Numbered from the stretch's first letter, positions 7,097 to 30,054 are shown. The stretch is DNA of 64,000 bases from Arcobacteraceae bacterium (GCA_048268245.1 JBLWVX010000007.1:1-64000); one strand, 5' to 3'. Notes: generated by a model not told the origin, from the sequence alone. Program-made: numbers and translations.

Positions 7097-7832
7097 CTCT
7101 ATCTTCATAAAGTTTACTTTCTAAATTTTTTTTATTTTTTATCTTAAGACTATAATCTCCTACAAAACTTATCATCTCCTTTGTTTTTGGTAAACTTCTA
7201 TCAATATTGAAAGATATAGGAATAAGCTCATTATAAAAAGCCACAGGTTTAGTAATCCTGAAATCAATAACACCTTTTTCAAATGAAGTATAAATATTAT
7301 CTGTAATATTTTCTGCTTCTTTTACTTCTATAGGTTCAACTTTATCTATTTTTGCAAAAAGCTGTTGCATTCCAAGATTAGGATTATAAACAAATCTTCC
7401 ATCCTTTAATCTATTAAAAAATATATCATGTACTTTTTTGTTATCTTCTTCAACATCATTATCAATTATAATAAATATTTCCCACTTAATATCTTTTAAA
7501 AATTCGTACCTAGTAGGACTTCTTTGTCCTCTAGCAGGTGGATTTTTTATTGCATTTTCATTAAAAGTAAACTTTGCACTTTTCCCTTGCATTAAATTTA
7601 TACCTACAGTATCTTTTTTTATTTTCGAAGTTAAAAGTTTAACTGCATAATCAAACTTATCAAAAGGAAGATTCAAAATATAATCTTTTTTACTCCATCC
7701 CATAATAGCACCTATCATGCCCAATATTGCAGTTTTGGGTGGTATTACAAAAGATTGTGGTTGATTATTAGCAAATGGCTTTTTAAATAAAGCATAATCA
7801 CCACTTAACCTAAATTTAATTGCTTGTTTCAT
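7071..7832 (-). CDS. cas5: Cas5 (type I-B)
   Basis: N-terminal GDYALFKKP..PPKTAILGMIGAIMG RAMP motif; YNPNLG. Confidence 0.93.
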   Translation of the reverse strand: MKQAIKFRLSGDYALFKKPFANNQPQSFVIPPKTAILGMIGAIMGWSKKDYILNLPFDKFDYAVKLLTSKIKKDTVGINLMQGKSAKFTFNENAIKNPPARGQRSPTRYEFLKDIKWEIFIIIDNDVEEDNKKVHDIFFNRLKDGRFVYNPNLGMQQLFAKIDKVEPIEVKEAENITDNIYTSFEKGVIDFRITKPVAFYNELIPISFNIDRSLPKTKEMISFVGDYSLKIKNKKNLESKLYEDRDGRLYQFI

Positions 7833-7833
7833 T

Positions 7834-8805
7834 TTATTTTAACTCTTCTATTTGTTTACCTTTGATTGTAAAGTAAGTAACTTTCTCTTTTAGCTTATCA
7901 TCTAATTGTAAAAAGTCTTTTTCAAAAGAGAAACTATCTACATAAATACTTACACTTTTTATTAAATCTTCAGATTTATTTAAAAAGCATTCAAGTTTTG
8001 AAAAATCCAAATCACTTTTTATATCATCAAATTTTCTATATTTAAACTTTTTCTCATCTTTTAAAGATATAGAATATTCAATATCTGGTATTTTGTAATA
8101 ATCATCATTATATTCTATATCAATAAATAACCTTGATTGTTGTCCAGTTTTTGAACGAGTATTTTTAGTATTTATTTCATTCCAAAGTGCTATTTTCATT
8201 TTTTCTAAATCTTTTAAATCTTTATTTATAAGATTTTCTACTGCTGTAGTTGGATTAAAATACCCAACACAAGAGAAAAGCCCATAAGGAAGATAAGAAA
8301 AAGTTGCCATAGAACCTTGTGTTTTATCTTCACCACTTTTCATAATAGTAGTATTTTGAGTCGTAGGTAAAAATACTTTATTTAGTGTTCTATTGAATAA
8401 TTTAAATTGAACTGCACCTGTTGCTTGTGTATTATATTGTCCTGTCTTACCAGCAACAACTGTTCCAAAAAGTCTTACATCTATACATTTTGTCTTCAAC
8501 TTCTCTAAGTTTTTAACTTCATCATAGACTTCTTTATTTTTATCATCTTTTTTAATTGTTTTTTTATTGTCTGCTAACTGTATAGCCCTTGTTCCTGTCG
8601 TTTCTTTGGCACCTTTTTCAGAATAAAATATAGTTTCATCTTCAAAATTTAAATCAATAAAATCTCTAATATACCTTTTTAATCTTACATCAGAAACTAA
8701 AGCCATTTGAACATCTTCATCATATCTTTGTTCTCCAGTAAATGGATCACCATTAGGTACACAATCTTTTGCATCATATAAAAATATAAACTCTCTTTTA
8801 TTCAT
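7834..8805 (-). CDS. cas7: Cas7 (Csh2-type, type I-B)
   Basis: FLYDAKDCVPNGDP, VSDVRLKRYIRD, DVRLFG, TGAVQF; AGGAG RBS before ATG at 8805. Confidence 0.93.
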   Translation of the reverse strand: MNKREFIFLYDAKDCVPNGDPFTGEQRYDEDVQMALVSDVRLKRYIRDFIDLNFEDETIFYSEKGAKETTGTRAIQLADNKKTIKKDDKNKEVYDEVKNLEKLKTKCIDVRLFGTVVAGKTGQYNTQATGAVQFKLFNRTLNKVFLPTTQNTTIMKSGEDKTQGSMATFSYLPYGLFSCVGYFNPTTAVENLINKDLKDLEKMKIALWNEINTKNTRSKTGQQSRLFIDIEYNDDYYKIPDIEYSISLKDEKKFKYRKFDDIKSDLDFSKLECFLNKSEDLIKSVSIYVDSFSFEKDFLQLDDKLKEKVTYFTIKGKQIEELK

Positions 8806-18577: not shown

Positions 18578-19708
18578 ATGACTTCTGCAATAGATTTATC
18601 TAAATTAACGGCAAATGATGACTTAACACCAGTTCTTGGTGGACACTGGCCAGGTATTCAAATATACTACCCTCCAATTAAGTTTAATCCATTAGACGGA
18701 ACATACGAGAGTATGGAGCAAGCAAAGCTTAGATTACAAAAACATGCTTATAAAACAAAAGCACATACTGTACTTTTTGACTTAGAAGACGGTTGTAGAC
18801 AAAAAGCTATGTCAAGAGAGTTATTAATTCAAGAACTTCCAAAGTTCCCAGAGAGAAACTTTCAAATAGCAGTTAGAATCAACCCATTTAGAACAGATGA
18901 GTATGAAGAAGACTTAAAAATGTTAAAACAAATTCACAAATATGTTGATGTAATTGTTTTAGCAAAAGCTGGAGAGGTTTATGGTTCAGCTGAGATTAGA
19001 GATTTATCTTCTTGGTTAGTATCTATTGGAAGTAACTTAACAATTCAACCAATTATTGAACACCCAAAATCACTTCAAATTGCTGATAGATTAATGGAGC
19101 ATTCAACAGTTAAACATGTTGTATTTGGTATTCATGACTTCTCAAAAGCAATGGCATACAAAATTACTCCAACTGGATGGATTAATGAATTAGAGACTTT
19201 CTTTAATATGTTAACTATGGAAGCAAGAGTAAAAGGTACAGGTGTAATTGGAGGGGTTGAAGTAATGTTAACACCACACTCTTTACCTGACAATTGTTTA
19301 GAGAAAAAAGATATCAGAAGATGGTTAGATTTACATGGTGATGAAGCTTCAAGACAAGTTTACGCTCATGCTAAAAAAGAGTGTGCAATGGGTCTTACAG
19401 GTAAGCAAGTAATTACTCCTAATCATATTAATGTATGTAAAGTTGCATTTACGCCATCTCCAAAAGAGATTGCTAAAGATGTATCTATATTAAAAGCTGC
19501 TATTGAAGCAGATGCATTATTATCTGGTGCGATTAGATATGAAGGTGAGATGTTAGATCCACCAATGTTCGGTAAGTCATTACAAAATTTATTAAGAGCA
19601 TATGCATTAAGAGCATTACCAAAAGAAGATGAGTTATTTGCATTAACTGTATTAAATAAAATGCCAATTCATACATTTAAAGAAAACTGGCCATACGGTC
19701 AAATCTAA
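18578..19708 (+). CDS. CitE/malyl-CoA lyase-family (HpcH/HpaI) enzyme
   Basis: FDLEDG, AVRINP, IIEHP, FGIHDFS, GKQVITPNHI, GEMLDPP. Confidence 0.85.
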   Translation: MTSAIDLSKLTANDDLTPVLGGHWPGIQIYYPPIKFNPLDGTYESMEQAKLRLQKHAYKTKAHTVLFDLEDGCRQKAMSRELLIQELPKFPERNFQIAVRINPFRTDEYEEDLKMLKQIHKYVDVIVLAKAGEVYGSAEIRDLSSWLVSIGSNLTIQPIIEHPKSLQIADRLMEHSTVKHVVFGIHDFSKAMAYKITPTGWINELETFFNMLTMEARVKGTGVIGGVEVMLTPHSLPDNCLEKKDIRRWLDLHGDEASRQVYAHAKKECAMGLTGKQVITPNHINVCKVAFTPSPKEIAKDVSILKAAIEADALLSGAIRYEGEMLDPPMFGKSLQNLLRAYALRALPKEDELFALTVLNKMPIHTFKENWPYGQI

Positions 19709-19722
19709 TAAGGAGTTATAAT

Positions 19723-22242
19723 ATGAGTTCAAATATCAAAATTGAAATACCTGAATTTTTAAATATCGGTGTTGCTTGTACTTCTGCTCACGTAGGAACA
19801 ACAAAAGAAAACAGCACTGCTATGATTATCGAAGATGATAAGTTAGGTACTGATGAAATTTCATATAAAGATTTAGCACAAAAATCTGACCAAATTTGTA
19901 ACTTCTTACAAGGTTTAGGTTTTGAAGCTAGAGATAGAGTACTAGTTTGTTTAAAGAATTCACTTGCATACCCTATTTCTTTCTTTGGTGCTATTAAAGC
20001 AGGAATTATTGCAGTTCCAACTTCAACTTTATTATCAGGTTCTGAAGTAAAATATCTTGCAGAAGATTCACAAGCAAGGGCTATTGTATTAAGTGCAACT
20101 ATGTATGAAAATTTAACTCCATACTTAGAAAACTTAGATAACCTAAAAACAATTATTGTTGCAGGTATTGATAGTGTTTCTGAGTTAAAAGTACCAAAAG
20201 GAATGAATGTTTACGCTTTAACTGAAATTTTAGAGCAAACAGATACAACTCCTAATCACTATAAGTCAAAATCTGGTGAGCCAGCTTACTTAGTATATAC
20301 ATCAGGTACAACTGGTTATCCAAAGGGTGTTTTACACTCTCATAGATCACTTGTAGGTAGAACTCCTGCAACTGAATACTGGTTTGATTTTAAAGAGAAT
20401 GATAGAATCATGCACTCTGGTAAATTTAACTGGACTTATGTATTAGGTTCTGCTTTAATGGATCCATTATTTAATGGTCATACAGTAATTGCATATGAAG
20501 GTGCAAATGAAGCTGGAACATGGATTGATTTAATTAAAAAACATAAATGTACTATCTTTATTGGAGTACCTACAATTTATAGACAAATCATTCAAAAGAC
20601 TGATTTCACAGCTGAAGATTGTCCATCATTAAGATATTGTATGTCTGCTGGTGAGCACTTATCTGATGAGATGATTGGTCTTTGGAGAGAAAGATTTAAA
20701 CAAGATATTTTTGAAGCTATTGGTATGTCTGAGTGTTCATACTATATTTCACACTCTAAGAATAACCCAATTAGACCTGGTTCTGCTGGATTCGTTCAAC
20801 CTGGACATACAGTAAAACTACTTGATCCTGATACTTTAGAAGAAGTAGAAGATGGAACTGAAGGTATGATTTGTATTGGTGAAGATGATCCAGGATTATT
20901 CTTAGAGTACTGGCAACTAGAAGAAGAGACTAGAAAAGCTAGACATAATGGATGGTTCTTTACTGGTGATTATGCTAAGAAAGATGAAGATGGATACATC
21001 TGGTTCATTGGTAGAAAAGATGATATTATCAATACTATGGGATTCAGAGTATCTCCACACGAGATTGAAAGAGTTGTAAAAACTAATAACGATGTAGCTG
21101 ATTGTGTTGCATTTGGTTTAGATATTGCCAAAGATAAAACACTTGTTGCAATTGCAGTAATTGGACATGATACTTTATCAGAAGAAAAAGAAGCTGAAAT
21201 TTTAAAATTTGCTCAAGATAATCTAGCTAAATATAAAGCACCTAAGTTTATTTTTGGACTAAGTGATTACCCAAGAACTAAAAATGGTAAAGTTTTAAGA
21301 AAACAATTAGTTAAAAACTTACATGATCAATACCATGCAAAAGAAACAGGTGAAGAGATTGTTGAGTACAAAGCTAGAAGATCTATGTTATTTGTACCTT
21401 CTTATAATAAACATAATGTTGAAAAAGCAAAATCTGTATTAGCAGATACTGTTATTTTTGACTTAGAAGCTATCTTACCTGAGCAAAGAGAAGCAGGAAG
21501 AGAAACAATTAGAACTGTTTACAAAGAGCAAGGTTGTAAGTTTGGTGAGTCTGAGAGAGTTCTTAGAATTAACAACTTAGGATCTGAAGATATTGCAAAA
21601 GATTTAGAATTAGCAAAAGAAGTTGAACTAGATGCTTTACTATTCTCAAAAATTGAAACAGCCGAGCAAGTAAACGAAGCTGTTAAATTAATTGAAGAAA
21701 TAAATCCTAATTTAACACTTATGATTATGATTGAAACTCCATTATCTGTACTAAATATCCAAGAAATTTGTGCAGCTAGTCCAAAAGTTGCAGTTGTAGT
21801 TGCAGGTTCAAATAAATTAGCTAATAGACTTCAAATTGATATTAAAAAAGGTTCTAAAGCAATGTTTAATTACCTATCGCAAATTGCACTTGCTGCAAAA
21901 GCATACGGTAAGATTGTTATTGATGGTCCTCATTTTGATGTACATGATGAGTTTGCTTGTGAAGATTCAACTAAAGATGCATTTAACTTAGGATTTGATG
22001 GTAAATCATTAATTCACCCAATCCAAATTGAGTACATCAATGATATCTTTACTCCAAAACAAAAAGAAGTTGAAAACTATGAAGCTATGATTGCATCATA
22101 TGAAGAAGCTAAAAAAGAAGGTAAAGAAGTAATCTTACACAACAATAAACTTGTTGATGGTGCTAGAATTAAATGGGCTAGAAAAATGATTGCTTTATAT
22201 GAAACATATAAATCATTAGGTCAAAACCTATTTGGTAAATAA
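19723..22242 (+). CDS. Acyl-CoA ligase (AMP-forming) fused to a C-terminal CitE-family domain
   Basis: YTSGTTGYPKG, EAIGMSE, TGD, GRKDD, PRTKNGK; from about 21370 RRSMLFVP, LRINN, IETP, GFDGKSLIHPIQI. Confidence 0.9.
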   Translation: MSSNIKIEIPEFLNIGVACTSAHVGTTKENSTAMIIEDDKLGTDEISYKDLAQKSDQICNFLQGLGFEARDRVLVCLKNSLAYPISFFGAIKAGIIAVPTSTLLSGSEVKYLAEDSQARAIVLSATMYENLTPYLENLDNLKTIIVAGIDSVSELKVPKGMNVYALTEILEQTDTTPNHYKSKSGEPAYLVYTSGTTGYPKGVLHSHRSLVGRTPATEYWFDFKENDRIMHSGKFNWTYVLGSALMDPLFNGHTVIAYEGANEAGTWIDLIKKHKCTIFIGVPTIYRQIIQKTDFTAEDCPSLRYCMSAGEHLSDEMIGLWRERFKQDIFEAIGMSECSYYISHSKNNPIRPGSAGFVQPGHTVKLLDPDTLEEVEDGTEGMICIGEDDPGLFLEYWQLEEETRKARHNGWFFTGDYAKKDEDGYIWFIGRKDDIINTMGFRVSPHEIERVVKTNNDVADCVAFGLDIAKDKTLVAIAVIGHDTLSEEKEAEILKFAQDNLAKYKAPKFIFGLSDYPRTKNGKVLRKQLVKNLHDQYHAKETGEEIVEYKARRSMLFVPSYNKHNVEKAKSVLADTVIFDLEAILPEQREAGRETIRTVYKEQGCKFGESERVLRINNLGSEDIAKDLELAKEVELDALLFSKIETAEQVNEAVKLIEEINPNLTLMIMIETPLSVLNIQEICAASPKVAVVVAGSNKLANRLQIDIKKGSKAMFNYLSQIALAAKAYGKIVIDGPHFDVHDEFACEDSTKDAFNLGFDGKSLIHPIQIEYINDIFTPKQKEVENYEAMIASYEEAKKEGKEVILHNNKLVDGARIKWARKMIALYETYKSLGQNLFGK

Positions 22243-22252
22243 GGAGAACTAA

Positions 22253-23311
22253 GTGTCTAAAATTAACGTTGGAAACTTTTTCGAAGACTTTTCAATTGGT
22301 CAAAAAATAGTACACCCACTTCCAAGAACAGTAAGTGAAGGTGATGTATCTTTATACATTGCTTTTACTGGTTCTAGATTTGCATTACATTCATCTGATG
22401 TAGTTGCTCAAGAAATGGGATATGAAAAAAGACCTATTGACGATACATTAAACTTCCACTTAACATTTGGTAAGTCGGTACAAGATATTTCGTTAAATGC
22501 TATTGCTAACTTAGGTTATGCAGAGATTTCTTTCCCTAATCCTGTTTACATTGGGGACACTGTTTCAATGACTTCAACTGTTATTGGATTAAAAGAGAAC
22601 TCAAATGGTAAATCTGGAGTTGTTTATGTTCACTCTATTGGTGTAAACCAAAAAGGTGAGGAAGTATTAAACTTCAAAAGATGGGTAATGGTTCACAAAA
22701 AGGACAAGACTACAACAACAGGAATTAAAGAGATTCCTACTTTTGCTGAGTCTACTCCAATTCTAGATGAAATCAATATACCAGAAATCAAATGTGTTGA
22801 TACTAACGCATCTGGTGGAAAGTTTTTCTTTGAAGATTATGAAAAAGGTGAAAGATTAAATCACCCAGAAGGTATTACAATTGATAACAGTGATCATACT
22901 TTAGCAACTAAGTTATACCAAAACAATGCAAAAGTACACTTCAATGACCATATGATGAAATCTACTCCTATGGGAGAGAGATTAATGTATGGGGGAATTG
23001 TAATATCAATGGCCAGAGCTATTTCATTTAATGGTTTACAAAATGCACAATGGATGTATGCTATTAACTCTGGTGCTCATGCAAACCCAACTTATGCTGG
23101 TGATACTATCTATGCTTACACAGAAGTTTTAGATACTATTGATCATAAGAGAGATGATATTGGATTATTAAGATTAAGAACAATTGCCCTTAAAAATCAA
23201 AAATCTGATGAAATTGAGTCACCAAAAGGTGAAGATGGTAAGTACTTAAAGAATGTAGTACTTGATTTAGATTACACGGTAATCATTCCAAAGAAAAAAA
23301 CACAAAAATAA
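22253..23311 (+). CDS. mch: Double hot-dog (MaoC) hydratase resembling mesaconyl-C1-CoA hydratase (beta-methylmalyl-CoA dehydratase)
   Basis: GNFFEDF..PRTVSEGD..FGKSVQDISLNAIANLGY..GVVYVHSIG..RWVMV and a second domain FFEDY..YQNNAKVHF..SFNGL. These match Mch of Chloroflexus/Rhodobacter as I recall the sequences. Confidence 0.82.
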   Translation: MSKINVGNFFEDFSIGQKIVHPLPRTVSEGDVSLYIAFTGSRFALHSSDVVAQEMGYEKRPIDDTLNFHLTFGKSVQDISLNAIANLGYAEISFPNPVYIGDTVSMTSTVIGLKENSNGKSGVVYVHSIGVNQKGEEVLNFKRWVMVHKKDKTTTTGIKEIPTFAESTPILDEINIPEIKCVDTNASGGKFFFEDYEKGERLNHPEGITIDNSDHTLATKLYQNNAKVHFNDHMMKSTPMGERLMYGGIVISMARAISFNGLQNAQWMYAINSGAHANPTYAGDTIYAYTEVLDTIDHKRDDIGLLRLRTIALKNQKSDEIESPKGEDGKYLKNVVLDLDYTVIIPKKKTQK

Positions 23312-23341
23312 ATTTAATTTTAAAAAAGGAAGGAAATTATA

Positions 23342-24325
23342 ATGACACACCCAAACGAAGCACTATTTGAATCTGGTAAATCTTTACCAATTATCCCAAC
23401 TTGTGAGCACTTTGCAGGAAGTGAAAAGCTTATCAAAAAAGGTTTTGATATGCAAAGAAAGCTTGGACCTGTTTTCGATATTACTTGTGATTGTGAAGAT
23501 GGAGCAGAAACTGGTAAAGAAGTTGAGCATGCAGAAATGATCGTTAGAGTTGTTAACTCTGAAGATAACCCATATGGAATGGCTGGTACAAGAATCCACG
23601 ATTTCTCTCATCCAGATTGGAGACAAGATGTTGATATTTTAGTTCCTGGTGCTGGTGAAAAACTAGCATACATTACATTACCAAAATCAACTTCTTACGA
23701 AGATGTAAAAACTCAAATTGAGTACATCCAAGAAGTAGCAAAAAAATCTGGTATTTCAAGAGAGATTCCAATTCATATCTTAATTGAAACTCATGGTGCT
23801 TTACAAGATGTAGAAAAAATCGCTACATTACCATGGTTACAAGTATTAGACTTTGGATTAATGGACTTCGTATCAGGATACCAAGGTGCAATTCCAGCAA
23901 TTAACATGAGAAGCCCAGGTCAATTTGATCACAGATTAATTGGAGCTGCTAAAGCAAAAGTTGCACAAGCTGCAATCCAAAATCATGTTATTCCAGCACA
24001 CAACGTAACACTTGATCTTAAAAACCCATACCAAACTTACAAAGATGCAGAAAGAGCAAGAAACGAGTTTGGATTCATGAGAATGTGGTCAATTTACCCA
24101 ACACAAGTACAAGCAATCGTTGATGCTATGAAACCAGACTTCACTGAGTTAGAAGCTGCACAAAATATTCTTTTAGCTGCACAAGATGCTGAGTGGGGAC
24201 CAATCCAATATGATGGTGAGTTACACGATAGAGCTACTTACAGATATTTCTGGGAATTAGTACAAAGAGCTCACTTCTCTGGTGCTAAATTAATGGAAGA
24301 AGTTAATACAAGATTCTTCTCTTAA
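23342..24325 (+). CDS. CitE/HpcH-family CoA-ester lyase
   Basis: CEHFAGSEK, FDITCDCEDGA, LIETHG, FGLMDFVS, MWSIYPTQV, LHDRATYRY. Confidence 0.85.
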   Translation: MTHPNEALFESGKSLPIIPTCEHFAGSEKLIKKGFDMQRKLGPVFDITCDCEDGAETGKEVEHAEMIVRVVNSEDNPYGMAGTRIHDFSHPDWRQDVDILVPGAGEKLAYITLPKSTSYEDVKTQIEYIQEVAKKSGISREIPIHILIETHGALQDVEKIATLPWLQVLDFGLMDFVSGYQGAIPAINMRSPGQFDHRLIGAAKAKVAQAAIQNHVIPAHNVTLDLKNPYQTYKDAERARNEFGFMRMWSIYPTQVQAIVDAMKPDFTELEAAQNILLAAQDAEWGPIQYDGELHDRATYRYFWELVQRAHFSGAKLMEEVNTRFFS

Positions 24326-24331
24326 TAACAA

Positions 24332-24357
24332 TAATCTAAGGCTTTTGCCTTAGATTA
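24332..24357 (+). terminator. Intrinsic terminator closing the four-gene operon
   Basis: TAATCTAAGGC-TTTT-GCCTTAGATTA perfect 11-bp stem. Confidence 0.8.
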
Positions 24358-24560
24358 ACTTCTTATAAATTACTTAATTTTTTTTCTTATAAAACAAACC
24401 TTTTTTTTACTTAATAATCTTTAGTTAAAATATCAATTATTTATATAGCTGTTAAGAGTTAACACTTTTTTAAAATAAAATTGTTAAGATTTTATGAAAA
24501 AAGATTTTTTTCATAATTACATAGGTATAATATTTACAATTTCTAAAGAAAAGGGAACAA

Positions 24561-26051
24561 ATGAGCGTTATTACAGAACAAGATATTATTGATAGTGTTG
24601 CAGGAGCATGTCAATACATTTCATATTATCACCCAACTGATTTCGTAGAAGGAATGGTTGAGGCTTATGAAAAAGAACAATCTGAATCAGCAAAGAATGC
24701 TATCGGACAAATTTTAATTAACTCAAAAATGTGTGCAATGGGTCACAGACCTTTATGTCAAGATACTGGATCAATCAACATTTTTGTAAAAGTTGGTTTA
24801 AATGCTAAACTTGATATTTCGAGAGAATTAGAAGATATTTTAAATGATGGTGTAGCTAAAGGCTATACTGATCCAGATAATACTTTAAGATTTTCAGTAG
24901 TTTCTGACCCAGCAGGTGAGAGAAAAAATACTAAAAATAATACACCAGCAGTTATTCACATGAGTGTAGATAACTCTGATAAAATTGATATTACAGTAGC
25001 TGCTAAAGGTGGTGGTTCTGAGAACAAATCTAAATTTGCAGTATTAAATCCATCTGATTCAATCTATGACTGGGTTATGGATAATGTAAGACAAATGGGT
25101 GCAGGATGGTGTCCTCCTGGTATCTTAGGAATTGGAATTGGTGGAAATCCAGAAAAAGCTATGTTATTAGCTAAAGAATCATTAATGGATCACGTTGACA
25201 TTCATGAATTAAAAGCTAGAGGTCCTCAAAATGCTCTTGAAGAGTTAAGACTTAAACTTTATGAAGACATTAACAAAATAGGAATTGGAGCACAAGGTTT
25301 AGGTGGTGTTACTACTGTTTTAGATGTTAAAATCTTAGACTATCCATGTCACGCTGCTTCTTTACCAGTTGCTATGATTCCAAACTGTGCTGCTACTAGA
25401 CATATTCACTTTGAATTAGATGGTAATGGTGCTGCTAAATTTGAAAAGCCTGATTTAGATATCTGGCCTGATTTAGAAATTCCAATGGATACAGTAAAAA
25501 AAGTAAATATTGAAGATTTAACAAAAGAGAATTTATCTCAATTTAAATCAGGTGATACTCTATTATTATCTGGAAAAATCTTAACAGCAAGAGATGCTGC
25601 ACATAAGAAAATCGTTGAGTACAAAAATGCTGGTAAACCACTTCCAAATGGTGTTGAATTAAAAGATAGATTTATCTATTATGTTGGACCAGTTGATCCA
25701 GTAAGAGATGAAAAAGTAGGACCAGCAGGACCAACTACATCTACAAGAATGGATAAATTTACTAAAGACATGATGGAAATTGGTATCATGGGTATGATTG
25801 GTAAAGCTGAAAGAAAACAACCAACTATTGATTTAATTAAAGAGTATAAATCTACTTATTTAATTGCAACTGGTGGTGCAGCTTACTTAATTTCTCAATC
25901 AATTAAAGATGCTAAAGTTGTAGCATTTGAAGAACTTGGTATGGAAGCTATTTACGAATTTGAAGTAAAAGACATGCCTGTTACTGTTGCGGTCGACACT
26001 GAGGGTGTATCTATTCACACTACAGGTCCTGCAAAATGGAGAACTATTTAA
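24561..26051 (+). CDS. fumA: Class I (Fe-S) fumarate hydratase
   Basis: RPLCQDTG, KGGGSEN, GWCPP, GPTTSTRMD, IGKAER. Confidence 0.93.
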   Translation: MSVITEQDIIDSVAGACQYISYYHPTDFVEGMVEAYEKEQSESAKNAIGQILINSKMCAMGHRPLCQDTGSINIFVKVGLNAKLDISRELEDILNDGVAKGYTDPDNTLRFSVVSDPAGERKNTKNNTPAVIHMSVDNSDKIDITVAAKGGGSENKSKFAVLNPSDSIYDWVMDNVRQMGAGWCPPGILGIGIGGNPEKAMLLAKESLMDHVDIHELKARGPQNALEELRLKLYEDINKIGIGAQGLGGVTTVLDVKILDYPCHAASLPVAMIPNCAATRHIHFELDGNGAAKFEKPDLDIWPDLEIPMDTVKKVNIEDLTKENLSQFKSGDTLLLSGKILTARDAAHKKIVEYKNAGKPLPNGVELKDRFIYYVGPVDPVRDEKVGPAGPTTSTRMDKFTKDMMEIGIMGMIGKAERKQPTIDLIKEYKSTYLIATGGAAYLISQSIKDAKVVAFEELGMEAIYEFEVKDMPVTVAVDTEGVSIHTTGPAKWRTI

Positions 26052-26079: not shown

Positions 26080-26234
26080 CACTTCTTTTTTCTAACCTTT
26101 TTGAAATAATACTCCCTCCTAAAATAATCCTTATACAAAAAAACTAAGTTTTAACTTTGACTTTAAGAAGATAGATTTATGCTATATTCTTATTCAACAA
26201 AAAAAGATTGATATATTTTATAGGAAAACTCAAT

Positions 26235-27071
26235 ATGTTATTAGACGATTTAAAAGATTATTTAGGATTTGCTGTTGCTGGAAATTTTGCTAACCACTTA
26301 GGAGAAGCTGGAGAAGCTGATGAGTTTTCAGTTATTAAAACACAAGAAAAAGATGCTCCAAAAGGAATGTTTCCCTTTTATATTAAAGGTCATGATTCAT
26401 TTTTAGGAACTTACCCTATTTGTGATGAGATTATTTATACACATGGAAGAGAAAAAGACAACTTACAAGTAGAAGCTGAAGTTGCACTTATTTGTGATTT
26501 TGTTTATGAAGATGGAAAAGTTAAAGATATTATTCCTAAATACTTCTCTGCTTTTAATGATTGTTCTATTAGAATTCAAGATGGAAATAAACTAAGTACA
26601 AAGAAGAACTGGGGAGAAAATACAAAAGGTATTTCTCAAGATATTATTGAAATAGACAATTTTACAGAAGATGGAATACTAAATAGATACCATATTGCTT
26701 CATTTATAAAAAGAGATGGTATTGTACATGACTATGGTACTACTAGTGCTGTAAAATCATATAGTTACTTCTTTGAACAATTGAAAGATTGGATGATAGA
26801 TAAACTAAATACACAAGAAGATTGTGGACCACTTGAAGAATTAACTCAATTCTTAGATGTTGCAGCTAAAGACGCAAAAGGTATCTTAATAGCAGCAGGA
26901 GCTACAGCATATGCTGACTTTGGAAAGAAAAACTTTTTAGAAAAAGGTGATGAAATTTTTGTTTATGTATATGATGCTCACTTCCATTCATTTGATGATA
27001 TCTACAATGATATGTGTGGAATGGATACTTTCTTAAGTCAATGTTCTAAGCTTCATCAAGTTGTACAATAA
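26235..27071 (+). CDS. Conserved protein (DUF5718-like) with fumarylacetoacetate-hydrolase-like motifs
   Basis: AGNFANH, EAEVAL, FNDCSIR, KKNW; AGGA RBS before ATG at 26235. Confidence 0.7.
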   Translation: MLLDDLKDYLGFAVAGNFANHLGEAGEADEFSVIKTQEKDAPKGMFPFYIKGHDSFLGTYPICDEIIYTHGREKDNLQVEAEVALICDFVYEDGKVKDIIPKYFSAFNDCSIRIQDGNKLSTKKNWGENTKGISQDIIEIDNFTEDGILNRYHIASFIKRDGIVHDYGTTSAVKSYSYFFEQLKDWMIDKLNTQEDCGPLEELTQFLDVAAKDAKGILIAAGATAYADFGKKNFLEKGDEIFVYVYDAHFHSFDDIYNDMCGMDTFLSQCSKLHQVVQ

Positions 27072-27101
27072 AGTATAAAAGGGATTAATCCTTTTATACT
27101 T
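27071..27101. terminator. Bidirectional terminator between convergent genes
   Basis: AAGTATAAAAGG...CCTTTTATACTT inverted repeat. Confidence 0.7.
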
Positions 27102-30054
27102 ATTTTCTTAAAGCCTTAGTATTTACAACAGCTATATTATTTAAACATCCAAATAACTCACCAGTTATATCTTCAATCTCTTTAGCCTTTTGTTTTAGTT
27201 CATCATTACTTGCATTTGAAGCATTTAAATCCATAAACTCTTGCATTAAAACATGGAAATTCTCTTTTTTAGTTTTTAATTCTCTCCACTGTGTTGAAGC
27301 TGTATAAGGCATATTTTTTGATTCACTTTCAATAATCCATTTACCTAACTCAGTCTCTTCATTTTTTACTATATCTACATGGCTATAAGTATTTAATTGT
27401 TTATAGTACTCTTTTTTTAGATTGATATTATTATTTTTGTACTTTGATATCTGTTGAATTAAATCAATATCATCAACCATATCATAATATTTTTCATTAA
27501 TTTTTGTTTTCTTAGTAATTCCAAGTAACCTTGATGATAATTGAGCAACTTCCTTTGATAGTAAACCAATACTCGCAGAAGTAGCTGCATTTTCTTGTGT
27601 CATTCTATCAAGATGTGCAACAGCATCATTTACTTGAATCATACCACTTTCTTGTTCTTTTATTGCACCACTTACATTGTCAATAATATTTTTAGTGTCT
27701 ACAATCTTTGAAGATAGTTCATCATAGCCTTTAATCATATTATTAGCTATATTTTTACCTTCATTTGACTTTTGTGTTGCATCTTCAACTAATGCTTTAA
27801 TCTCATTTGCAGCCTCAGCACTTCTACTTGCAAGATTTCTTACTTCTTGTGCAACAACAGCAAAACCTTTTCCAGCTTCACCTGCCGTTGCTGCTTCTAC
27901 AGCTGCATTAAGTGAAAGAATATTTGTTTGGAATGCAATTTTATCAATAACACTAATCGCTTCATTTATTGCTGTTACTTTATCATTTATCTCATCCATT
28001 GATGTAGATGTTTTATTTGCTAATTCATTTCCAGTTTTTGCTGTATTATTAAGTTCATCTGAGATTGTAAGCATTCTTTCAACATCTTTACTACTTGATT
28101 GCATATTGCTTGTAATTTGCTCAATAGAAGCTGCTGTTTGTTCAAGTGAAGCTGCTTGTTCATTTGAACTTGTAGATAAGTTTTGAGAAGATTTACTTAA
28201 AGTAATTGTATTAGATTCTAATTCTTTTCCTGCATTTGTAATCATTGCAACTAGCTGAGATATAGATTGCCCTAATAAGACTGAACCAGCAAATAATGTA
28301 CCAAAATCACCATATAAACCATCTTTTTCATTTTCATCTAATCTTGTATCATATGCACCTTTTGCATACCCATCTAAGACTTTGTTTATATTAGCAACTT
28401 TATTGCTTGTATTTAATATCATATCATTAATACTAAGTCTTAAAGACTCAACCTCAGCTGTTGCACCATGTTGTTTAATTTCATACTGTAAAAAACCATT
28501 TGATGTTTTTTGAGCTACATCAGATAATTCACTTACAACTTTTCTATCCTGTTCTATTATATCTTTGATTTTTATTATTTGTTTATTCATATCTTCAGTC
28601 ATTAAAGCAAACTCATCTGAACCTTTAACTTCCATAGGTTTTAGATAATCTTTTTTTCTACTTACATATAAAAAGAAGTATTCTAAGCCCTGCTTAAACT
28701 CTTTAAGTGAATTAACAATTTTTTTTGTCATAAAAGATACTGATACTATTACTAAAATTAAAACTACAACAATAAGTGTAATTAATATATAAAACTCTTT
28801 ATTTATTTTTGAGATTTTTAAATTTATTCTATCTTTTAACTTATCTACTATTTGTAATTCTAAATTTCTTAACTTTTCAATCCTTTTTAAAGAAACCTCA
28901 TCCCATTTTTTTAAATCAGCACCATATATATTTTTAGATAATTCATCTAAACTATTTAAAGCCCTTTTATCATCAATTTGTACATACTTATCTATTTCTT
29001 CAATACTTTGTTCACTATCTCTTAAAGCTTGAATTTCTGATGCCATTAATAAATAAGAATCAAATACTCTTTGTATTTTTTTTATAAGTTTTTTTTCAAC
29101 TCTTGTTACACCTTTTATTCTTTTATAGGCTTTAAGTTTTCTAATTATTGATACATGTTGTTGTTCAAACTTTTTATAATATGCTCTATCACCTCTTAGA
29201 ACATAGTTCTTAAAGTTATGTATAAGCCCTCCATACCCTGCTAACTCTTTTATTTGTGTAAGTAAACTATCCTTATTATTCTTTATAGTAATTAGTTCTC
29301 TTAACTTTTCAACTTCTAAGTTTTCATCAGACTTTAAAAGCTCATCAAGTTTTTTTAGTTCTTCATCAAACGCAACTTTTTTAAATGTATTTAAATAAGT
29401 ATTTTGAGAAGCAACTAATGAACCAAATTTAAAACCATCTTCATTTGAGATAGATGCAATTTGAAATATATTTCTCAAAATCAATGACTCTTCATATGCT
29501 CTATCTTTTATATTTGATAAAGATACTAAGGATTCTGAGTATTTAGTTAACTGTGCATTATTTGAAAAACTAACTAATTCATCAAGAAATGTAAAAAGAC
29601 TACTTTTCAAAGAATCATAATAAGTTTTTACTTTTAATGAATCTAGTTGGTTGTTTCTTATTTTAGCTCTTATATTAGATAAAGACGAAAGTTGTTTTCT
29701 TAACTTTAATAAATTGTCATCTATTTTAATTCCGAATTTTTTTGAGTTGAAAGTTTTAATAAACCTATCAAATTCTTCATAAGCTTTAGTTGTCTTATCC
29801 TTTTGGTTTTCTAATTCATTTTTAAAACTTTTACCATATGAAGCTATATAAATTAAAGAATAGTATCTTTCTTTTTGAAACTCATTTAATAATGAGCTTG
29901 CTTTAATATTAAACTCTAAATACTCTTGAGTCAAAAGCATTGAGTCTTTTATTTCATACTCTTTTTTTAGTATTATTAAAGATAAAATAATAATACTAAC
30001 TAATGGAAGTACAAGTATAATTAGTATTTTATTTTGCAATTTTAAGGTGTTCAT
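27100..30054 (-). CDS. Methyl-accepting chemotaxis protein with a NIT-like sensor and a C-terminal CZB-like domain
   Basis: Two TM segments; NEFQKER NIT-like motif; [37 protein letters not shown] signalling hairpin; LGKWI tail. Confidence 0.92.

What the first reader, a model, noticed from the sequence alone, without database searches (positions are those of the whole stretch)
18578..26051. Candidate citramalate/mesaconate cycle for acetate or glyoxylate assimilation in a Campylobacterota bacterium
Seen: a tight operon of CitE lyase, CoA-ligase::CitE fusion, Mch-like hydratase and second CitE lyase, followed by a class I fumarase, with no transporter in the cluster. By eye the codons look like those of highly expressed genes (many TTC/AAC/TAC/CAC). 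Known: class I fumarases interconvert (S)-citramalate and mesaconate; Mch interconverts mesaconyl-C1-CoA and beta-methylmalyl-CoA; CitE-family enzymes act as malyl-, methylmalyl- and citramalyl-CoA lyases and thioesterases in the ethylmalonyl-CoA, 3-hydroxypropionate and methylaspartate pathways. Inference: these parts suffice for acetyl-CoA + pyruvate -> citramalate -> mesaconate -> mesaconyl-CoA (by an ATP-dependent ligase rather than the usual CoA-transferase) -> methylmalyl-CoA -> propionyl-CoA + glyoxylate -> malate. That would be an isocitrate-lyase-independent anaplerotic route resembling the proposed citramalate cycle. Alternatives are the reverse direction (glyoxylate/propionate co-assimilation) or mesaconate/itaconate catabolism.
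Basis: partly seen in the sequence, partly recalled or inferred. Interest (0 to 1): 0.85.

Follow-up and report, generated by a model that had tools for sequence, protein, structure and literature searches.

The report
Mesaconyl-CoA operon linked to methylcitrate cycle
This is a real, probably highly expressed gene cluster for CoA-ester chemistry around five-carbon acids and glyoxylate; it was already predicted in Arcobacter butzleri in 2007 and has never been tested biochemically, and it most likely works with the methylcitrate cycle as a substitute for the missing isocitrate lyase.

Summary
A class I fumarase and a DUF5718 gene follow as separate units. The codon-usage claim holds.

Miller et al. 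2007 proposed the same citramalate/3-hydroxypropionate-like scheme for the orthologous A. butzleri cluster ab1917-ab1921. Earlier agents of this scan also met the module on other DNA.

The same parts form one conserved module in Arcobacteraceae, Sulfurospirillum, Methylophilaceae, Methylophaga and Thiobacillus. In methylotrophs it lies in one operon with prpB-prpC. This genome has a methylcitrate cycle. I found no isocitrate lyase, malate synthase, ccr, methylmalonyl-CoA mutase or family III CoA-transferase.

Best reading (about 0.45): pyruvate + acetyl-CoA go through citramalate, mesaconate and mesaconyl-CoA to propionyl-CoA + glyoxylate, and the methylcitrate cycle regenerates pyruvate.

Against it: the fused CitE domain has lost a metal ligand, A. 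butzleri reportedly does not grow on acetate, and no enzyme has been assayed.

The parts
18578..19708 (+). CitE1: divergent CitE/malyl-CoA-lyase-like protein, 376 aa. It always lies directly upstream of the ligase.
   Evidence: Pfam HpcH_HpaI 34.5 bits. Weak sequence hits to CLYBL and malyl-CoA lyases. The AF2 model is of low confidence (pLDDT 66); its best Foldseek matches are malyl-CoA lyases 4l9y, 5ugr and 4l7z. Arg100, Glu161 and Asp187 are invariant in 65 of 65 sequences and Asp327 in 63 of 65.
19723..21327 (+). AMP-forming acyl-CoA ligase domain of the 839-aa fusion (aa 1-535).
   Evidence: AMP-binding 247 bits plus AMP-binding_C. No NCBIfam equivalog cut-off is reached; the best models are a long-chain-fatty-acid-CoA ligase subfamily model (305.8 bits), benzoate-CoA ligase family and MbcS. 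PDB best hits are aromatic and short-chain acid ligases, E about 1e-57. It is a stand-alone gene in the beta- and gammaproteobacterial versions.
21328..22242 (+). CitE2: the CitE/Ccl-like domain of the fusion (aa 536-839), with a degenerate metal site.
   Evidence: HpcH_HpaI 116.5 bits. NCBIfam citE 151 bits and RipC/Ccl 124.5 bits, both below cut-off. The Asp that aligns with the G-x-x-D motif of CLYBL and RipC is Lys here. That Asp is missing in 35 of 35 fused forms and kept in 39 of 41 forms called stand-alone.
22253..23311 (+). Mch: mesaconyl-C1-CoA hydratase / beta-methylmalyl-CoA dehydratase homologue, 352 aa.
   Evidence: PDB 4e3e E 2.6e-110 and 8hgn ('Beta-methylmalyl-CoA dehydratase') E 3.9e-101, both over the full length. 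Pfam MC_hydratase 89.7 bits.
23342..24325 (+). CitE3: malyl-CoA-lyase-like protein of the 3QQW/3R4I group, 327 aa. It always lies directly downstream of Mch.
   Evidence: PDB 3qqw E 2.3e-140 and 3r4i E 4.8e-101 (both of unknown function), 4l9y malyl-CoA lyase E 6.4e-14. Arg84, Glu149, Asp175 and Asp296 are invariant in 81 of 81 sequences. Fifth highest C-ending codon index of 1973 ORFs.
24332..24357 (+). Terminator-like hairpin that ends the four-gene operon.
   Evidence: 11-bp stem with 4 GC pairs; a consensus match only.
24561..26051 (+). Fused (alpha+beta) class I Fe-S fumarase, 496 aa; the candidate mesaconase.
   Evidence: Fumerase 316 bits plus Fumerase_C 265 bits. It is the only class I fumarase in the genome, while three FumaraseC_C proteins lie elsewhere. 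The fused type tracks the module in Arcobacteraceae. It is present at 59-63% identity in 5 of 5 distant module-bearing genomes, and in the two Methylophilaceae genomes it lies 1.2-1.7 kb before the CitE1 end of the fetched locus, a gap that would fit the ligase gene.
26235..27071 (+). DUF5718 protein, 278 aa from the ATG (287 aa from the TTG at 26208), with a fumarylacetoacetate-hydrolase-like fold. Membership of the pathway is uncertain.
   Evidence: Pfam DUF5718 320 bits. AF2 pLDDT 80, pTM 0.82. Foldseek top hits are Cg1458, L-2,4-diketo-3-deoxyrhamnonate hydrolase, YisK and FAHD1, probability 1.0, TM 0.44-0.50. Found within 9 kb downstream of CitE3 in 26 of 80 loci, all of them among the Campylobacterota-like loci L043-L078 by their close identities, though some records carry other MAG labels.

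Best explanation
The four-gene operon and the neighbouring class I fumarase are the Arcobacteraceae version of a conserved six-part module: CitE1, AMP-forming ligase, CitE2, Mch, CitE3 and a fused class I fumarase.

I propose that the module runs in the energy-requiring direction, in these steps:
1. Acetyl-CoA + pyruvate give (S)-citramalyl-CoA (a CitE-type lyase).
2. (S)-citramalyl-CoA is hydrolysed to (S)-citramalate (a CitE-type thioesterase).
3. (S)-citramalate gives mesaconate (the fumarase acting as mesaconase).
4. Mesaconate gives mesaconyl-C1-CoA (the ligase; ATP to AMP).
5. Mesaconyl-C1-CoA gives beta-methylmalyl-CoA (Mch).
6. beta-Methylmalyl-CoA gives propionyl-CoA + glyoxylate (CitE3).

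The methylcitrate cycle (PrpC, AcnD/PrpF, PrpB) then condenses propionyl-CoA with oxaloacetate and returns pyruvate plus succinate. The net reaction is acetyl-CoA + oxaloacetate -> glyoxylate + succinate, the reaction normally delivered by citrate synthase, aconitase and isocitrate lyase. Glyoxylate plus a second acetyl-CoA gives malyl-CoA and then malate through the CitE paralogues.

What is shown: the gene content, its conservation, its linkage to prp genes and the missing alternative routes. What rests on strong homology: step 5 and the methylcitrate cycle. What is inferred: the ligase substrate, the mesaconase role, the thioesterase, the direction of flux and the physiological purpose (anaplerosis on acetate, or a bypass of 2-oxoglutarate oxidation).
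For: 1. Mch is about as close as sequence can show to solved beta-methylmalyl-CoA dehydratases (E 4e-101 to 3e-110).

2. CitE1 and CitE3 keep every canonical catalytic residue across 65 and 81 sequences.

3. Module conservation. Of 80 loci found with CitE3, 77 hold Mch, 75 CitE2 and 68 CitE1, and 50 hold the ligase within 9 kb. The hosts are Arcobacteraceae, Sulfurospirillum, Methylophilaceae including a 1.3-Mb genome, Methylophaga, Thiobacillus, Sideroxydans, Gallionellales and Sedimenticolaceae.

4. In 33 of 80 loci prpB follows CitE3 directly, and prpC follows prpB wherever the locus reaches that far. In Methylotenera the order is CitE2-Mch-CitE3-PrpB-PrpC-PrpD, divergent from GntR, malic enzyme, SdhCDAB, SdhE and CitE1.

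5. Among 151 Arcobacteraceae genomes, 96 of the 97 with Mch also have PrpB.

6. Of the 97 Mch-positive genomes, 94 have the fused fumarase type. Of the 54 Mch-negative genomes, 42 have the split type and only 4 the fused type. The switch also occurs within two genera. The same fused fumarase is present in 5 of 5 distant module-bearing genomes, and in the two Methylophilaceae genomes it lies 1.2-1.7 kb before the CitE1 end of the fetched locus, a gap that would fit the ligase gene.

7. Alternatives not found in this 99.3%-complete genome: ICL, malate synthase (21), ccr (24), methylmalonyl-CoA mutase (25), family III CoA-transferase (94) and methylaspartate ammonia-lyase (95). All three HpcH/CitE domains of the genome lie in this cluster. 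ICL was found in 0 of 151 Arcobacteraceae genomes. Malate synthase was found in 16 of 151, all of them Mch-positive.

8. Predicted high expression of both the module and the prp genes. CAI ranks of 1973 ORFs: AcnD 1, PrpC 9, CitE3 27, fumarase 49, fusion 63.

9. Near-identical contigs (9 of 10 at 99% or more) in an oyster RNA library cover parts of CitE1, CitE2, the Mch-CitE3 junction, CitE3, the fumarase and DUF5718. DNA carry-over cannot be excluded.

10. Thermodynamic inference from established knowledge (recalled). The 3-hydroxypropionate bi-cycle runs from glyoxylate + propionyl-CoA to pyruvate + acetyl-CoA without ATP, so a thioesterase plus an AMP-forming ligase make sense only to drive the opposite direction.

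11. Environmental Arcobacter phylotypes grow on and incorporate 13C-acetate (PMC6175234, passages).
Against: 1. No enzyme of the module has been assayed. The phrase 'mesaconyl-CoA synthetase' and four similar names occur in only one paper of the held library, Miller 2007.

2. [quoted passage not shown] One Arcobacter isolate used acetate only minimally but used propionate well (PMC6249378).

3. In all 35 fused proteins, this one included, the CitE2 domain has lost the Asp that aligns with the Mg ligand. The replacement varies (K, N, T, S, Q, H, R), and 6 of the 35 have also lost the Glu. CitE2 is also the fastest-evolving part. The best candidate citramalyl-CoA lyase may therefore be inactive here.

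4. The ligase is fused to a CitE domain, yet mesaconyl-CoA is not a CitE substrate. On its face the fusion fits citramalate-CoA ligase plus citramalyl-CoA lyase better.

5. In this genome the prp genes lie on another contig, and the fumarase has its own terminator-bounded unit.

6. Co-occurrence counts come from related genomes and are not independent.

7. Class I fumarases also serve the ordinary TCA cycle, so linkage to sdh and prp genes does not by itself show mesaconase activity.
Confidence: 0.45

Rival explanations
1. Catabolism of free C5-dicarboxylates. (S)-citramalate or mesaconate taken from outside is converted by the fumarase, the ligase, Mch and CitE3 to propionyl-CoA + glyoxylate. 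Propionyl-CoA is disposed of by the methylcitrate cycle. Glyoxylate is turned into malate by the other two CitE paralogues, one acting as malyl-CoA lyase and one as thioesterase. No citramalyl-CoA is made.
For: It uses the same well-supported steps (Mch; canonical CitE1 and CitE3). It gives all three CitE paralogues a role. It explains the link to prp genes without needing the degenerate CitE2 to act as a citramalyl-CoA lyase. Class I fumarases support growth on mesaconate in Burkholderia (recalled; not read here).
Against: No transporter or dedicated regulator lies in or beside the cluster. The module is kept in obligate methylotrophs and autotrophs, including a 1.3-Mb genome. Codon usage places it and the prp genes among the most highly expressed genes, which is odd for rare substrates. 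No internal source of mesaconate was found: no methylaspartate ammonia-lyase.
Confidence: 0.2
2. Reverse direction, the scheme preferred by Miller 2007 and resembling the second cycle of the 3-hydroxypropionate bi-cycle. Glyoxylate + propionyl-CoA give beta-methylmalyl-CoA, then mesaconyl-CoA, mesaconate and citramalate. The ligase activates citramalate, and the fused CitE domain cleaves citramalyl-CoA to pyruvate + acetyl-CoA. This would be glyoxylate/propionate co-assimilation.
For: A ligase fused to a CitE/Ccl-like domain would catalyse consecutive steps. The CitE2 domain scores best with citE and RipC/Ccl models. Malate synthase genes in 16 module-bearing genomes show that glyoxylate is a metabolite in this family. 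The scheme is in print.
Against: The fused CitE2 domain lacks the conserved Asp in 35 of 35 cases. The route needs a mesaconyl-CoA thioesterase, which has no precedent in the CitE family (recalled). Both this route and the co-transcribed methylcitrate cycle would consume propionyl-CoA with no evident source. Spending ATP on an already favourable direction is wasteful (inference).
Confidence: 0.12
3. The ligase is an ordinary short-chain acid activator (acetate or propionate, as the public annotations 'acetyl-CoA synthetase' and 'prpE' say). The fumarase is simply the cycle's fumarase for succinate to malate. The three CitE paralogues and Mch then perform a partly unknown reaction set that does not pass through free mesaconate.
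For: No AcsA-type enzyme reaches the cut-off in this genome, and the best Acs-like hit is this ligase (214 bits against 725). Methylophilaceae papers list the gene as prpE and fum beside sdhABCD. The fumarase is a separate transcription unit here.
Against: Mesaconyl-C1-CoA would then be a dead end: no family III CoA-transferase and no second hydratase in the module. The ligase has Gly where acetyl-CoA synthetases have the pocket-closing Trp (motif 'IGMSE'; the ACS residue is recalled). CitE1-ligase adjacency is universal, and in the two Methylophilaceae genomes the fumarase lies just beyond the CitE1 end of the locus, which together with the published gene list 'cyl3, prpE, fum' suggests a CitE1-ligase-fumarase unit. 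The fused fumarase type travels with the module even within genera.
Confidence: 0.13

Closest known systems
Arcobacter butzleri RM4018 cluster ab1917-ab1921 (Miller et al. 2007, PLoS One, PMC2147049; passages read)
   Same: Same gene order and domain structure: CitE, ligase with a C-terminal CitE domain, enoyl-CoA hydratase, CitE, then the 'anaerobic' fumarase. A. butzleri proteins are 84% identical to the fusion here. The paper proposes mesaconyl-CoA synthetase, mesaconyl-CoA hydratase, beta-methylmalyl-CoA lyase and malyl-CoA lyase, links them to the methylcitrate pathway, and draws 'citramalate cycles' in its Figure 3.
   Different: That paper favoured flow from glyoxylate + propionyl-CoA to pyruvate + acetyl-CoA. 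It offered no comparative or expression evidence. It did not note the degenerate metal site, the wider distribution or the DUF5718 neighbour.
[quoted passage not shown]
   Same: cyl1-3, maoC, prpE and fum are homologues of CitE3/CitE2/CitE1, Mch, the ligase and the fumarase here. Identities: 66-70% for CitE3, 50-56% for Mch, 59-66% for CitE1 and 33-40% for CitE2; 54-61% for the ligase in the beta- and gammaproteobacterial loci that hold it; 59-63% for the fumarase. Gene order checked. The cluster is highly transcribed in situ, and its substrate is described as unknown.
   Different: There the ligase and CitE2 are separate genes, CitE2 keeps its Asp, and the module is contiguous with prp, sdh and malic-enzyme genes. 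Here the prp genes lie on another contig.
Citramalate cycle proposed for Rhodospirillum rubrum (Ivanovsky et al. 1997; seen only through the review PMC8307300, passages)
   Same: The same intermediates from pyruvate + acetyl-CoA to propionyl-CoA + glyoxylate.
   Different: The proposal regenerates pyruvate through propionyl-CoA carboxylase and methylmalonyl-CoA mutase, and uses a CoA-transferase for mesaconate. Here the mutase is not found and the methylcitrate cycle and an AMP-forming ligase would take those places. The original cycle never acquired a gene set.
Glyoxylate-assimilation cycle of the 3-hydroxypropionate bi-cycle (Chloroflexus: Mcl, Mch, Mct, Meh; recalled)
   Same: Mch is closely related, and CitE1 and CitE3 resemble the tri-functional malyl-CoA lyases.
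   Different: No Mct-type CoA-transferase was found and no Meh. Free acids, a fumarase and a ligase would replace them, and the proposed direction is opposite.
Mcl1/Mcl2 pair of Rhodobacter sphaeroides (ethylmalonyl-CoA pathway; 4l9y solved; the Mcl2 thioesterase is recalled)
   Same: It is a precedent for CitE-family paralogues that split lyase and thioesterase duties and together act as a malate synthase.
   Different: Sequence relationship is remote (E 6e-14 for CitE3, 1e-6 for CitE1). No ccr or mutases are present here.

Membership tests
Mesaconyl-C1-CoA hydratase (Mch, beta-methylmalyl-CoA dehydratase) | One chain of about 350 aa with two MaoC/hot-dog halves, alignable over its full length to a solved Mch | tested here: met
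   Pfam MC_hydratase covers aa 6-317. PDB 8hgn E 3.9e-101 over aa 3-348 and 4e3e E 2.6e-110.
Mesaconyl-C1-CoA hydratase (Mch, beta-methylmalyl-CoA dehydratase) | Score above a curated equivalog cut-off | tested here: not met
   The only NCBIfam Mch model is haloarchaeal: 87 bits against a cut-off of 560. That model is lineage-specific, so this weighs little.
Mesaconyl-C1-CoA hydratase (Mch, beta-methylmalyl-CoA dehydratase) | Hydration of mesaconyl-C1-CoA to erythro-beta-methylmalyl-CoA | not testable with these tools
   Needs an enzyme assay.
CitE / malyl-CoA lyase family (Mg-dependent acyl-CoA C-C lyases) | HpcH_HpaI TIM-barrel domain | tested here: met
   All three domains are over the Pfam cut-off of 25 bits: 34.5, 116.5 and 31.4.
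CitE / malyl-CoA lyase family (Mg-dependent acyl-CoA C-C lyases) | Conserved Arg, Glu and Asp metal ligands and the C-terminal Asp (the roles of these residues are recalled from the malyl-CoA lyase structures) | tested here: met
   CitE1: R100, E161 and D187 invariant in 65 of 65 and D327 in 63 of 65. CitE3: R84, E149, D175 and D296 invariant in 81 of 81. This row covers CitE1 and CitE3 only.
CitE / malyl-CoA lyase family (Mg-dependent acyl-CoA C-C lyases) | The same residues in the CitE2 domain of the fusion | tested here: not met
   The Asp of the G-x-x-D motif is Lys here and is missing in 35 of 35 fused forms; the Glu is lost in 6 of 35.
Class I (Fe-S) fumarate hydratase | Fumerase plus Fumerase_C domains in one chain | tested here: met
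   316 and 265 bits. TIGR00722 and TIGR00723 are over their cut-offs.
Class I (Fe-S) fumarate hydratase | Mesaconase activity ((S)-citramalate to mesaconate) | not testable with these tools
   Known for some class I fumarases (recalled). No sequence signature is available.
Citramalate cycle as originally proposed | Regeneration of pyruvate from propionyl-CoA through carboxylation and methylmalonyl-CoA mutase | tested here: not met
   No MM_CoA_mutase match in the genome. A methylcitrate cycle is present instead.
3-hydroxypropionate bi-cycle, second cycle | Mesaconyl-CoA C1-C4 CoA-transferase (family III) | tested here: not met
   No PF02515 match in the genome, which is 99.3% complete.
Methylaspartate cycle | Methylaspartate ammonia-lyase | tested here: not met
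   No PF07476 match.
Ethylmalonyl-CoA pathway | Crotonyl-CoA carboxylase/reductase | tested here: not met
   Best hit 40 bits against a cut-off of 379.
Glyoxylate shunt | Isocitrate lyase and malate synthase | tested here: not met
   The ICL-family hit is PrpB. No malate synthase in this genome. ICL found in 0 of 151 genomes of the family.
Itaconate degradation (Ict, Ich, Ccl/RipC) | RipC/Ccl and RipB/Ich equivalogs plus a CoA-transferase | tested here: not met
   RipC 124.5, 53.8 and 36.3 bits against a cut-off of 375; RipB/Ich 115.6 against 340. No family III CoA-transferase.
Methylophilaceae 'MCC' super-cluster | Homologues of cyl1-3, maoC, prpE and fum | tested here: met
   tblastn identities 33-70% with conserved order. 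Methylotenera locus annotated. Fumarase 59-63% identical.
Methylophilaceae 'MCC' super-cluster | Contiguity with prpBCD, sdhABCD and a GntR regulator | tested here: not met
   Here prpB-prpC-acnD-prpF lie on contig C3. The flanks in the window are bioD, clpS/clpA and an MCP.

The most novel reading that the evidence does not exclude
The module plus the methylcitrate cycle is a true, ATP-driven 'citramalate-methylcitrate bicycle'. This would be an isocitrate-lyase-independent glyoxylate cycle in which pyruvate and propionyl-CoA act as catalytic carriers. It would serve as a main carbon route in Arcobacteraceae, Methylophilaceae including OM43-type cells, Methylophaga, Thiobacillus and Gallionellaceae. 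It would contain the first mesaconate-CoA ligase and new CitE-family thioesterases. It would also explain the long-unexplained high in-situ expression of the 'methylcitric acid cycle' cluster in methylotrophs.
Probability: 0.4. Interest if true: 0.85.

Novelty: already known. Interest (0 to 1): 0.5.

Why it matters

It would give a gene set to the old 'citramalate cycle' idea, which was abandoned for purple bacteria.

It would explain how bacteria that lack isocitrate lyase use acetate or bypass 2-oxoglutarate oxidation. ICL was found in 0 of 151 Arcobacteraceae genomes. Obligate methylotrophs and autotrophs that lack 2-oxoglutarate dehydrogenase would be covered too.

It would also answer a question stated as open in the methylotroph literature: which metabolite the highly expressed MCC cluster processes (PMC3728764).

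As it stands, the cluster in this window is an orthologue of a published but untested prediction.

Tried and rejected
- Names from curated models. None of the first four gene products (CitE1, the fusion, Mch, CitE3) reaches an NCBIfam cut-off, and the fumarase passes only two subfamily-domain models (TIGR00722, TIGR00723), so no function can be read off.
- Representative search with the whole fusion. The list was swamped by NRPS adenylation domains. Only one full-length fused representative (840 aa, 68% identity) and one partial one (477 aa, 42%) appeared. A cluster look-up gave almost no taxon names.
- Structure of CitE1. The model is poor (pLDDT 66; residues 185-291 below 50), so only the family-level match to malyl-CoA lyases is usable.
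- Telling lyase from thioesterase by sequence. I know of no residue signature, so this was left open.
- Ligase substrate from sequence. I saw only that the pocket motif is 'IGMSE' and that an invariant polar stretch 'HSGKFNWTYVLGS' exists. Neither is decisive.
- Depth in RNA-type runs. In wastewater run X1 the operon shows 176-1016x and the fumarase 22-438x (64-438x over all but its last bin), against 0-15x over the flanks bioD/clpS and DUF5718/MCP. X1 is only guessed to be RNA, the depths are sums of contigs from several strains, and conserved genes recruit relatives. So I make no claim about expression level.
- Parts of the stretch without cover in runs X7, X8 and X10: no conclusion drawn.
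- NifJ-type pyruvate:ferredoxin oxidoreductase. None is over the cut-off, and a four-subunit 2-oxoacid oxidoreductase-like locus on contig C4 was not resolved further. Reductive carboxylation of acetyl-CoA therefore remains an unexcluded alternative for acetate assimilation.
- Papers not held: Lapidus 2011, Chistoserdova 2011 and Beck 2011. They may contain a proposal for the cyl/maoC genes that I could not see.
- I considered testing a hetero-oligomer of CitE paralogues with complex prediction. I dropped it because the report makes no binding claim.

Full report
**Observation**

- CitE1: 18578-19708, 376 aa, weak HpcH_HpaI match.
- A fusion: 19723-22242, 839 aa, an AMP-forming acyl-CoA ligase joined to an HpcH_HpaI domain that I call CitE2.
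- Mch: 22253-23311, 352 aa, a double-MaoC hydratase.
- CitE3: 23342-24325, 327 aa.
- A fused class I fumarase: 24561-26051, 496 aa.

The first four genes are separated by 14, 10 and 30 nt and are followed by a terminator-like hairpin. The fumarase comes after a 235-nt gap and has its own hairpin. So does the next gene, a DUF5718 protein.

The flanks hold no transporter: bioD, clpS/clpA on one side, a NIT-domain chemoreceptor on the other. The best homologues of the fusion are 82-94% identical proteins of Arcobacter, Aliarcobacter, Malaciobacter and Poseidonibacter, so the organism belongs to the Arcobacteraceae.

**Codon usage**

I called 1973 long ORFs in the genome. Ranked by C-ending Phe/Asn/Tyr/His codons, the cluster genes stand at 5 (CitE3), 36 (Mch), 101 (fusion), 130 (CitE1), 208 (fumarase) and 250 (DUF5718).

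Of the 24 best-ranked ORFs I scanned 20; the four left out were this cluster's CitE3 and prpB, prpC and acnD. The 20 include seven ribosomal proteins, EF-Ts, IF3, ATP synthase beta, AhpC, isocitrate dehydrogenase and an aconitase. The index therefore tracks expression.

A CAI built on 11 translation and ATP-synthase genes gives these ranks: CitE3 27, fumarase 49, fusion 63, CitE1 109, Mch 225. The methylcitrate genes rank AcnD 1, PrpC 9, PrpF 74 and PrpB 76. GC3 is only slightly raised.

**Prior knowledge**

Miller et al. 2007 (PMC2147049; passages read) describe the orthologous A. butzleri cluster ab1917-ab1921. They name mesaconyl-CoA synthetase, mesaconyl-CoA hydratase, beta-methylmalyl-CoA lyase, malyl-CoA lyase and a broad-specificity fumarase, and draw 'methylcitrate and citramalate cycles'. 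They also report, as data not shown, no growth of A. butzleri on acetate, citrate or propionate.

[quoted passage not shown] It is highly transcribed in situ, and its substrate is described as unknown (PMC4109929 and PMC3728764; passages).

A search for five possible names of a mesaconate- or citramalate-CoA ligase found only Miller 2007. Three relevant papers were not held.

After my own comparisons I looked at the scan's notes. Earlier agents met the same module on other DNA and reached similar conclusions. Those notes are not independent evidence.

**The proteins**

Mch matches two solved structures over its full length: 4e3e (E 2.6e-110) and 8hgn, named beta-methylmalyl-CoA dehydratase (E 3.9e-101).

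CitE3 matches two structural-genomics proteins of unknown function, 3qqw (E 2.3e-140) and 3r4i. More distantly it matches malyl-CoA lyases.

CitE1 is remote from everything solved. Its low-confidence model finds malyl-CoA lyases first.

CitE2 scores best with citE and RipC/Ccl models, below cut-off.

From 80 related loci I extracted orthologues and checked the residues that align with the Arg, the Glu and Asp metal ligands and the C-terminal Asp of malyl-CoA lyases; the roles of those residues are recalled. The results:
- CitE1: Arg, Glu and the metal-ligand Asp invariant in 65 of 65 sequences, the C-terminal Asp in 63 of 65.
- CitE3: all invariant in 81 of 81 sequences.
- CitE2, fused forms: the Asp is missing in all 35, replaced by K18, N8, T4, S2, Q, H or R. 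Six of the 35 also lack the Glu.
- CitE2, forms called stand-alone: 39 of 41 keep the Asp. One exception, L043, looks like a broken fusion.

CitE2 is also the least conserved part: 33-40% identity to methylotroph homologues, against 66-70% for CitE3.

**Distribution and linkage**

In 401 Campylobacterota genomes Mch was found in 22. These were 19 of 23 other Arcobacteraceae, 2 of 19 genomes of one further family, and the window's own genome. None was found in the 358 genomes of the other 12 families sampled.

A genome-contig scan with CitE3 returned 80 loci. Besides Arcobacteraceae they come from Sulfurospirillum, Methylophilaceae (including a 1.3-Mb genome), Methylophaga, Thiobacillus, Tepidiphilus, Sideroxydans, Gallionellales, Sedimenticolaceae and Chromatiales. 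By tblastn:
- 77 of the 80 loci hold Mch, 75 CitE2, 68 CitE1 and 50 the ligase.
- The order CitE1-ligase and CitE2-Mch-CitE3 is constant.
- One locus (Leptospiraceae) has CitE3 alone.
- In 33 loci prpB follows CitE3 directly, and prpC follows prpB wherever the locus reaches that far.

A Methylotenera locus reads CitE2-Mch-CitE3-PrpB-PrpC-PrpD. Divergent from it lie GntR, malic enzyme, SdhCDAB, SdhE and CitE1. A Thiobacillus locus has the fumarase divergent from CitE1-ligase-CitE2-Mch-CitE3.

In 151 Arcobacteraceae genomes Mch and PrpB are distributed as follows: both 96, Mch only 1 (an 85%-complete genome), PrpB only 9, neither 45.

Class I fumarases come in two forms in the family:
- 94 of the 97 Mch-positive genomes have the fused form of about 500 aa.
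- Of the 54 Mch-negative genomes, 42 have a split alpha-subunit form, 4 the fused form, 1 is unclear and 7 have none.
- The switch also occurs inside two genera.

The fused form is present at 59-63% identity in 5 of 5 distant module-bearing genomes. In the two Methylophilaceae genomes it lies 1.2-1.7 kb before the CitE1 end of the fetched locus, a gap that would fit the ligase gene.

All these genomes are related to one another, so the counts overstate independence.

**Rest of the genome (99.3% complete)**

Present: prpB, prpC, acnD and prpF, all over curated cut-offs.

Not found:
- Isocitrate lyase.
- Malate synthase.
- ccr.
- Methylmalonyl-CoA mutase.
- Family III CoA-transferase.
- Methylaspartate ammonia-lyase.
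- AcsA over cut-off.

The genome's only three HpcH/CitE domains are those of this cluster. ICL was found in 0 of 151 Arcobacteraceae genomes. Malate synthase G was found in 16 of 151, all Mch-positive.

**Interpretation**

With no CoA-transferase and no second hydratase, the only way to connect mesaconyl-C1-CoA to citramalate-level chemistry is through free acids. That requires a thioesterase, the fumarase acting as mesaconase, and the ligase.

The physical and phyletic coupling to the methylcitrate cycle suggests a closed loop. The module makes propionyl-CoA and glyoxylate from pyruvate and acetyl-CoA. The methylcitrate cycle returns pyruvate and yields succinate. The net result is the isocitrate-lyase reaction.

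This direction is also the one that needs energy, which explains a thioesterase plus an AMP-forming ligase (inference from the known direction of the 3-hydroxypropionate bi-cycle; recalled).

The sdh and malic-enzyme genes in the methylotroph cluster, and fum there by the published gene list, fit regeneration of oxaloacetate and pyruvate.

I give this reading about 0.45. The main doubts are these:
- The metal site of the fused CitE2 is degenerate.
- The fusion would fit a citramalate ligase-lyase pair more naturally.
- A. butzleri is reported not to grow on acetate, and another isolate uses it only weakly, although environmental Arcobacter do assimilate acetate.
- There is no biochemistry at all.

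The rivals are catabolism of external C5 acids (0.2), the reverse glyoxylate/propionate route (0.12) and a short-chain acid ligase with a housekeeping fumarase (0.13).

**Expression data**

An oyster metatranscriptome holds contigs, 9 of 10 at 99% identity or more, over parts of CitE1, CitE2, the Mch-CitE3 junction, CitE3, the fumarase and DUF5718. This shows presence in an RNA library only.

**Side finding**

The DUF5718 protein folds with confidence (pLDDT 80). It matches FAH-superfamily enzymes, first the protein Cg1458, then YisK and FAHD1. It keeps an invariant E-x-E...D pattern. It accompanies the module in 26 of 80 loci, all among the Campylobacterota-like loci. An oxaloacetate-decarboxylase-like role that supplies pyruvate would fit the cycle, but this is speculation.

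**Verdict**

The feature is real, conserved and probably highly expressed. But it was published as a prediction in 2007 and remains untested.

Noticed in passing
window 26235-27071 (+): The DUF5718 protein downstream of the fumarase has a fumarylacetoacetate-hydrolase-like fold. The top PDB matches are Cg1458, YisK and FAHD1. It keeps an invariant E80-x-E82...D109 pattern. It lies next to the module in 26 of 80 loci, all among the Campylobacterota-like loci. It may supply pyruvate from oxaloacetate.
   Followed up: partly
window 21328-22242 (CitE2 domain), position 163 of P0282: Every fused ligase::CitE protein (35 of 35) lacks the conserved metal-ligand Asp, and the replacement varies. 39 of the 41 forms called stand-alone keep it. 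The domain may be a pseudo-enzyme or may have changed chemistry after the fusion.
   Followed up: yes
G000:C3:131512-137652 (outside the window): prpF-acnD-prpC-prpB show the strongest codon adaptation in the genome: AcnD has CAI rank 1 and PrpC rank 9 of 1973. That is unusual for a pathway normally seen as propionate detoxification.
   Followed up: partly
Arcobacteraceae genomes G400, G435, G445, G375, G456, G464, G477, G482, G486, G491, G496, G505, G508, G511, G520, G526: Malate synthase G genes occur in 16 of 151 genomes of a family in which no isocitrate lyase was found (0 of 151). All 16 carry the Mch module.
   Followed up: partly
Arcobacteraceae genomes: Two mutually exclusive class I fumarase forms occur. 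A split alpha-subunit form of about 285-320 aa is found in module-less, mostly small genomes. A fused form of about 500 aa is found in module-bearing genomes, some of which have two fused copies.
   Followed up: partly
L043:about 6998-8000 (Halarcobacter ebronensis MAG record): My ORF extraction gave the CitE2 part as a separate 339-aa ORF, although it carries the Lys typical of fused forms. This may be a frameshift or assembly break in the fusion gene.
   Followed up: no
G000:C1:37487-39382 (outside the window): A 631-aa sodium/solute symporter of the VC_2705 family is distantly related to acetate/monocarboxylate symporters. It ranks 17 of 1973 on the codon index and is a possible organic-acid uptake system.
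   Followed up: no
window 27100-30054 (-): A 984-aa methyl-accepting chemotaxis protein with an N-terminal NIT (nitrate/nitrite-sensing) domain lies convergent with the DUF5718 gene. A flavin reductase-like gene and a dCache histidine kinase follow it.
   Followed up: no
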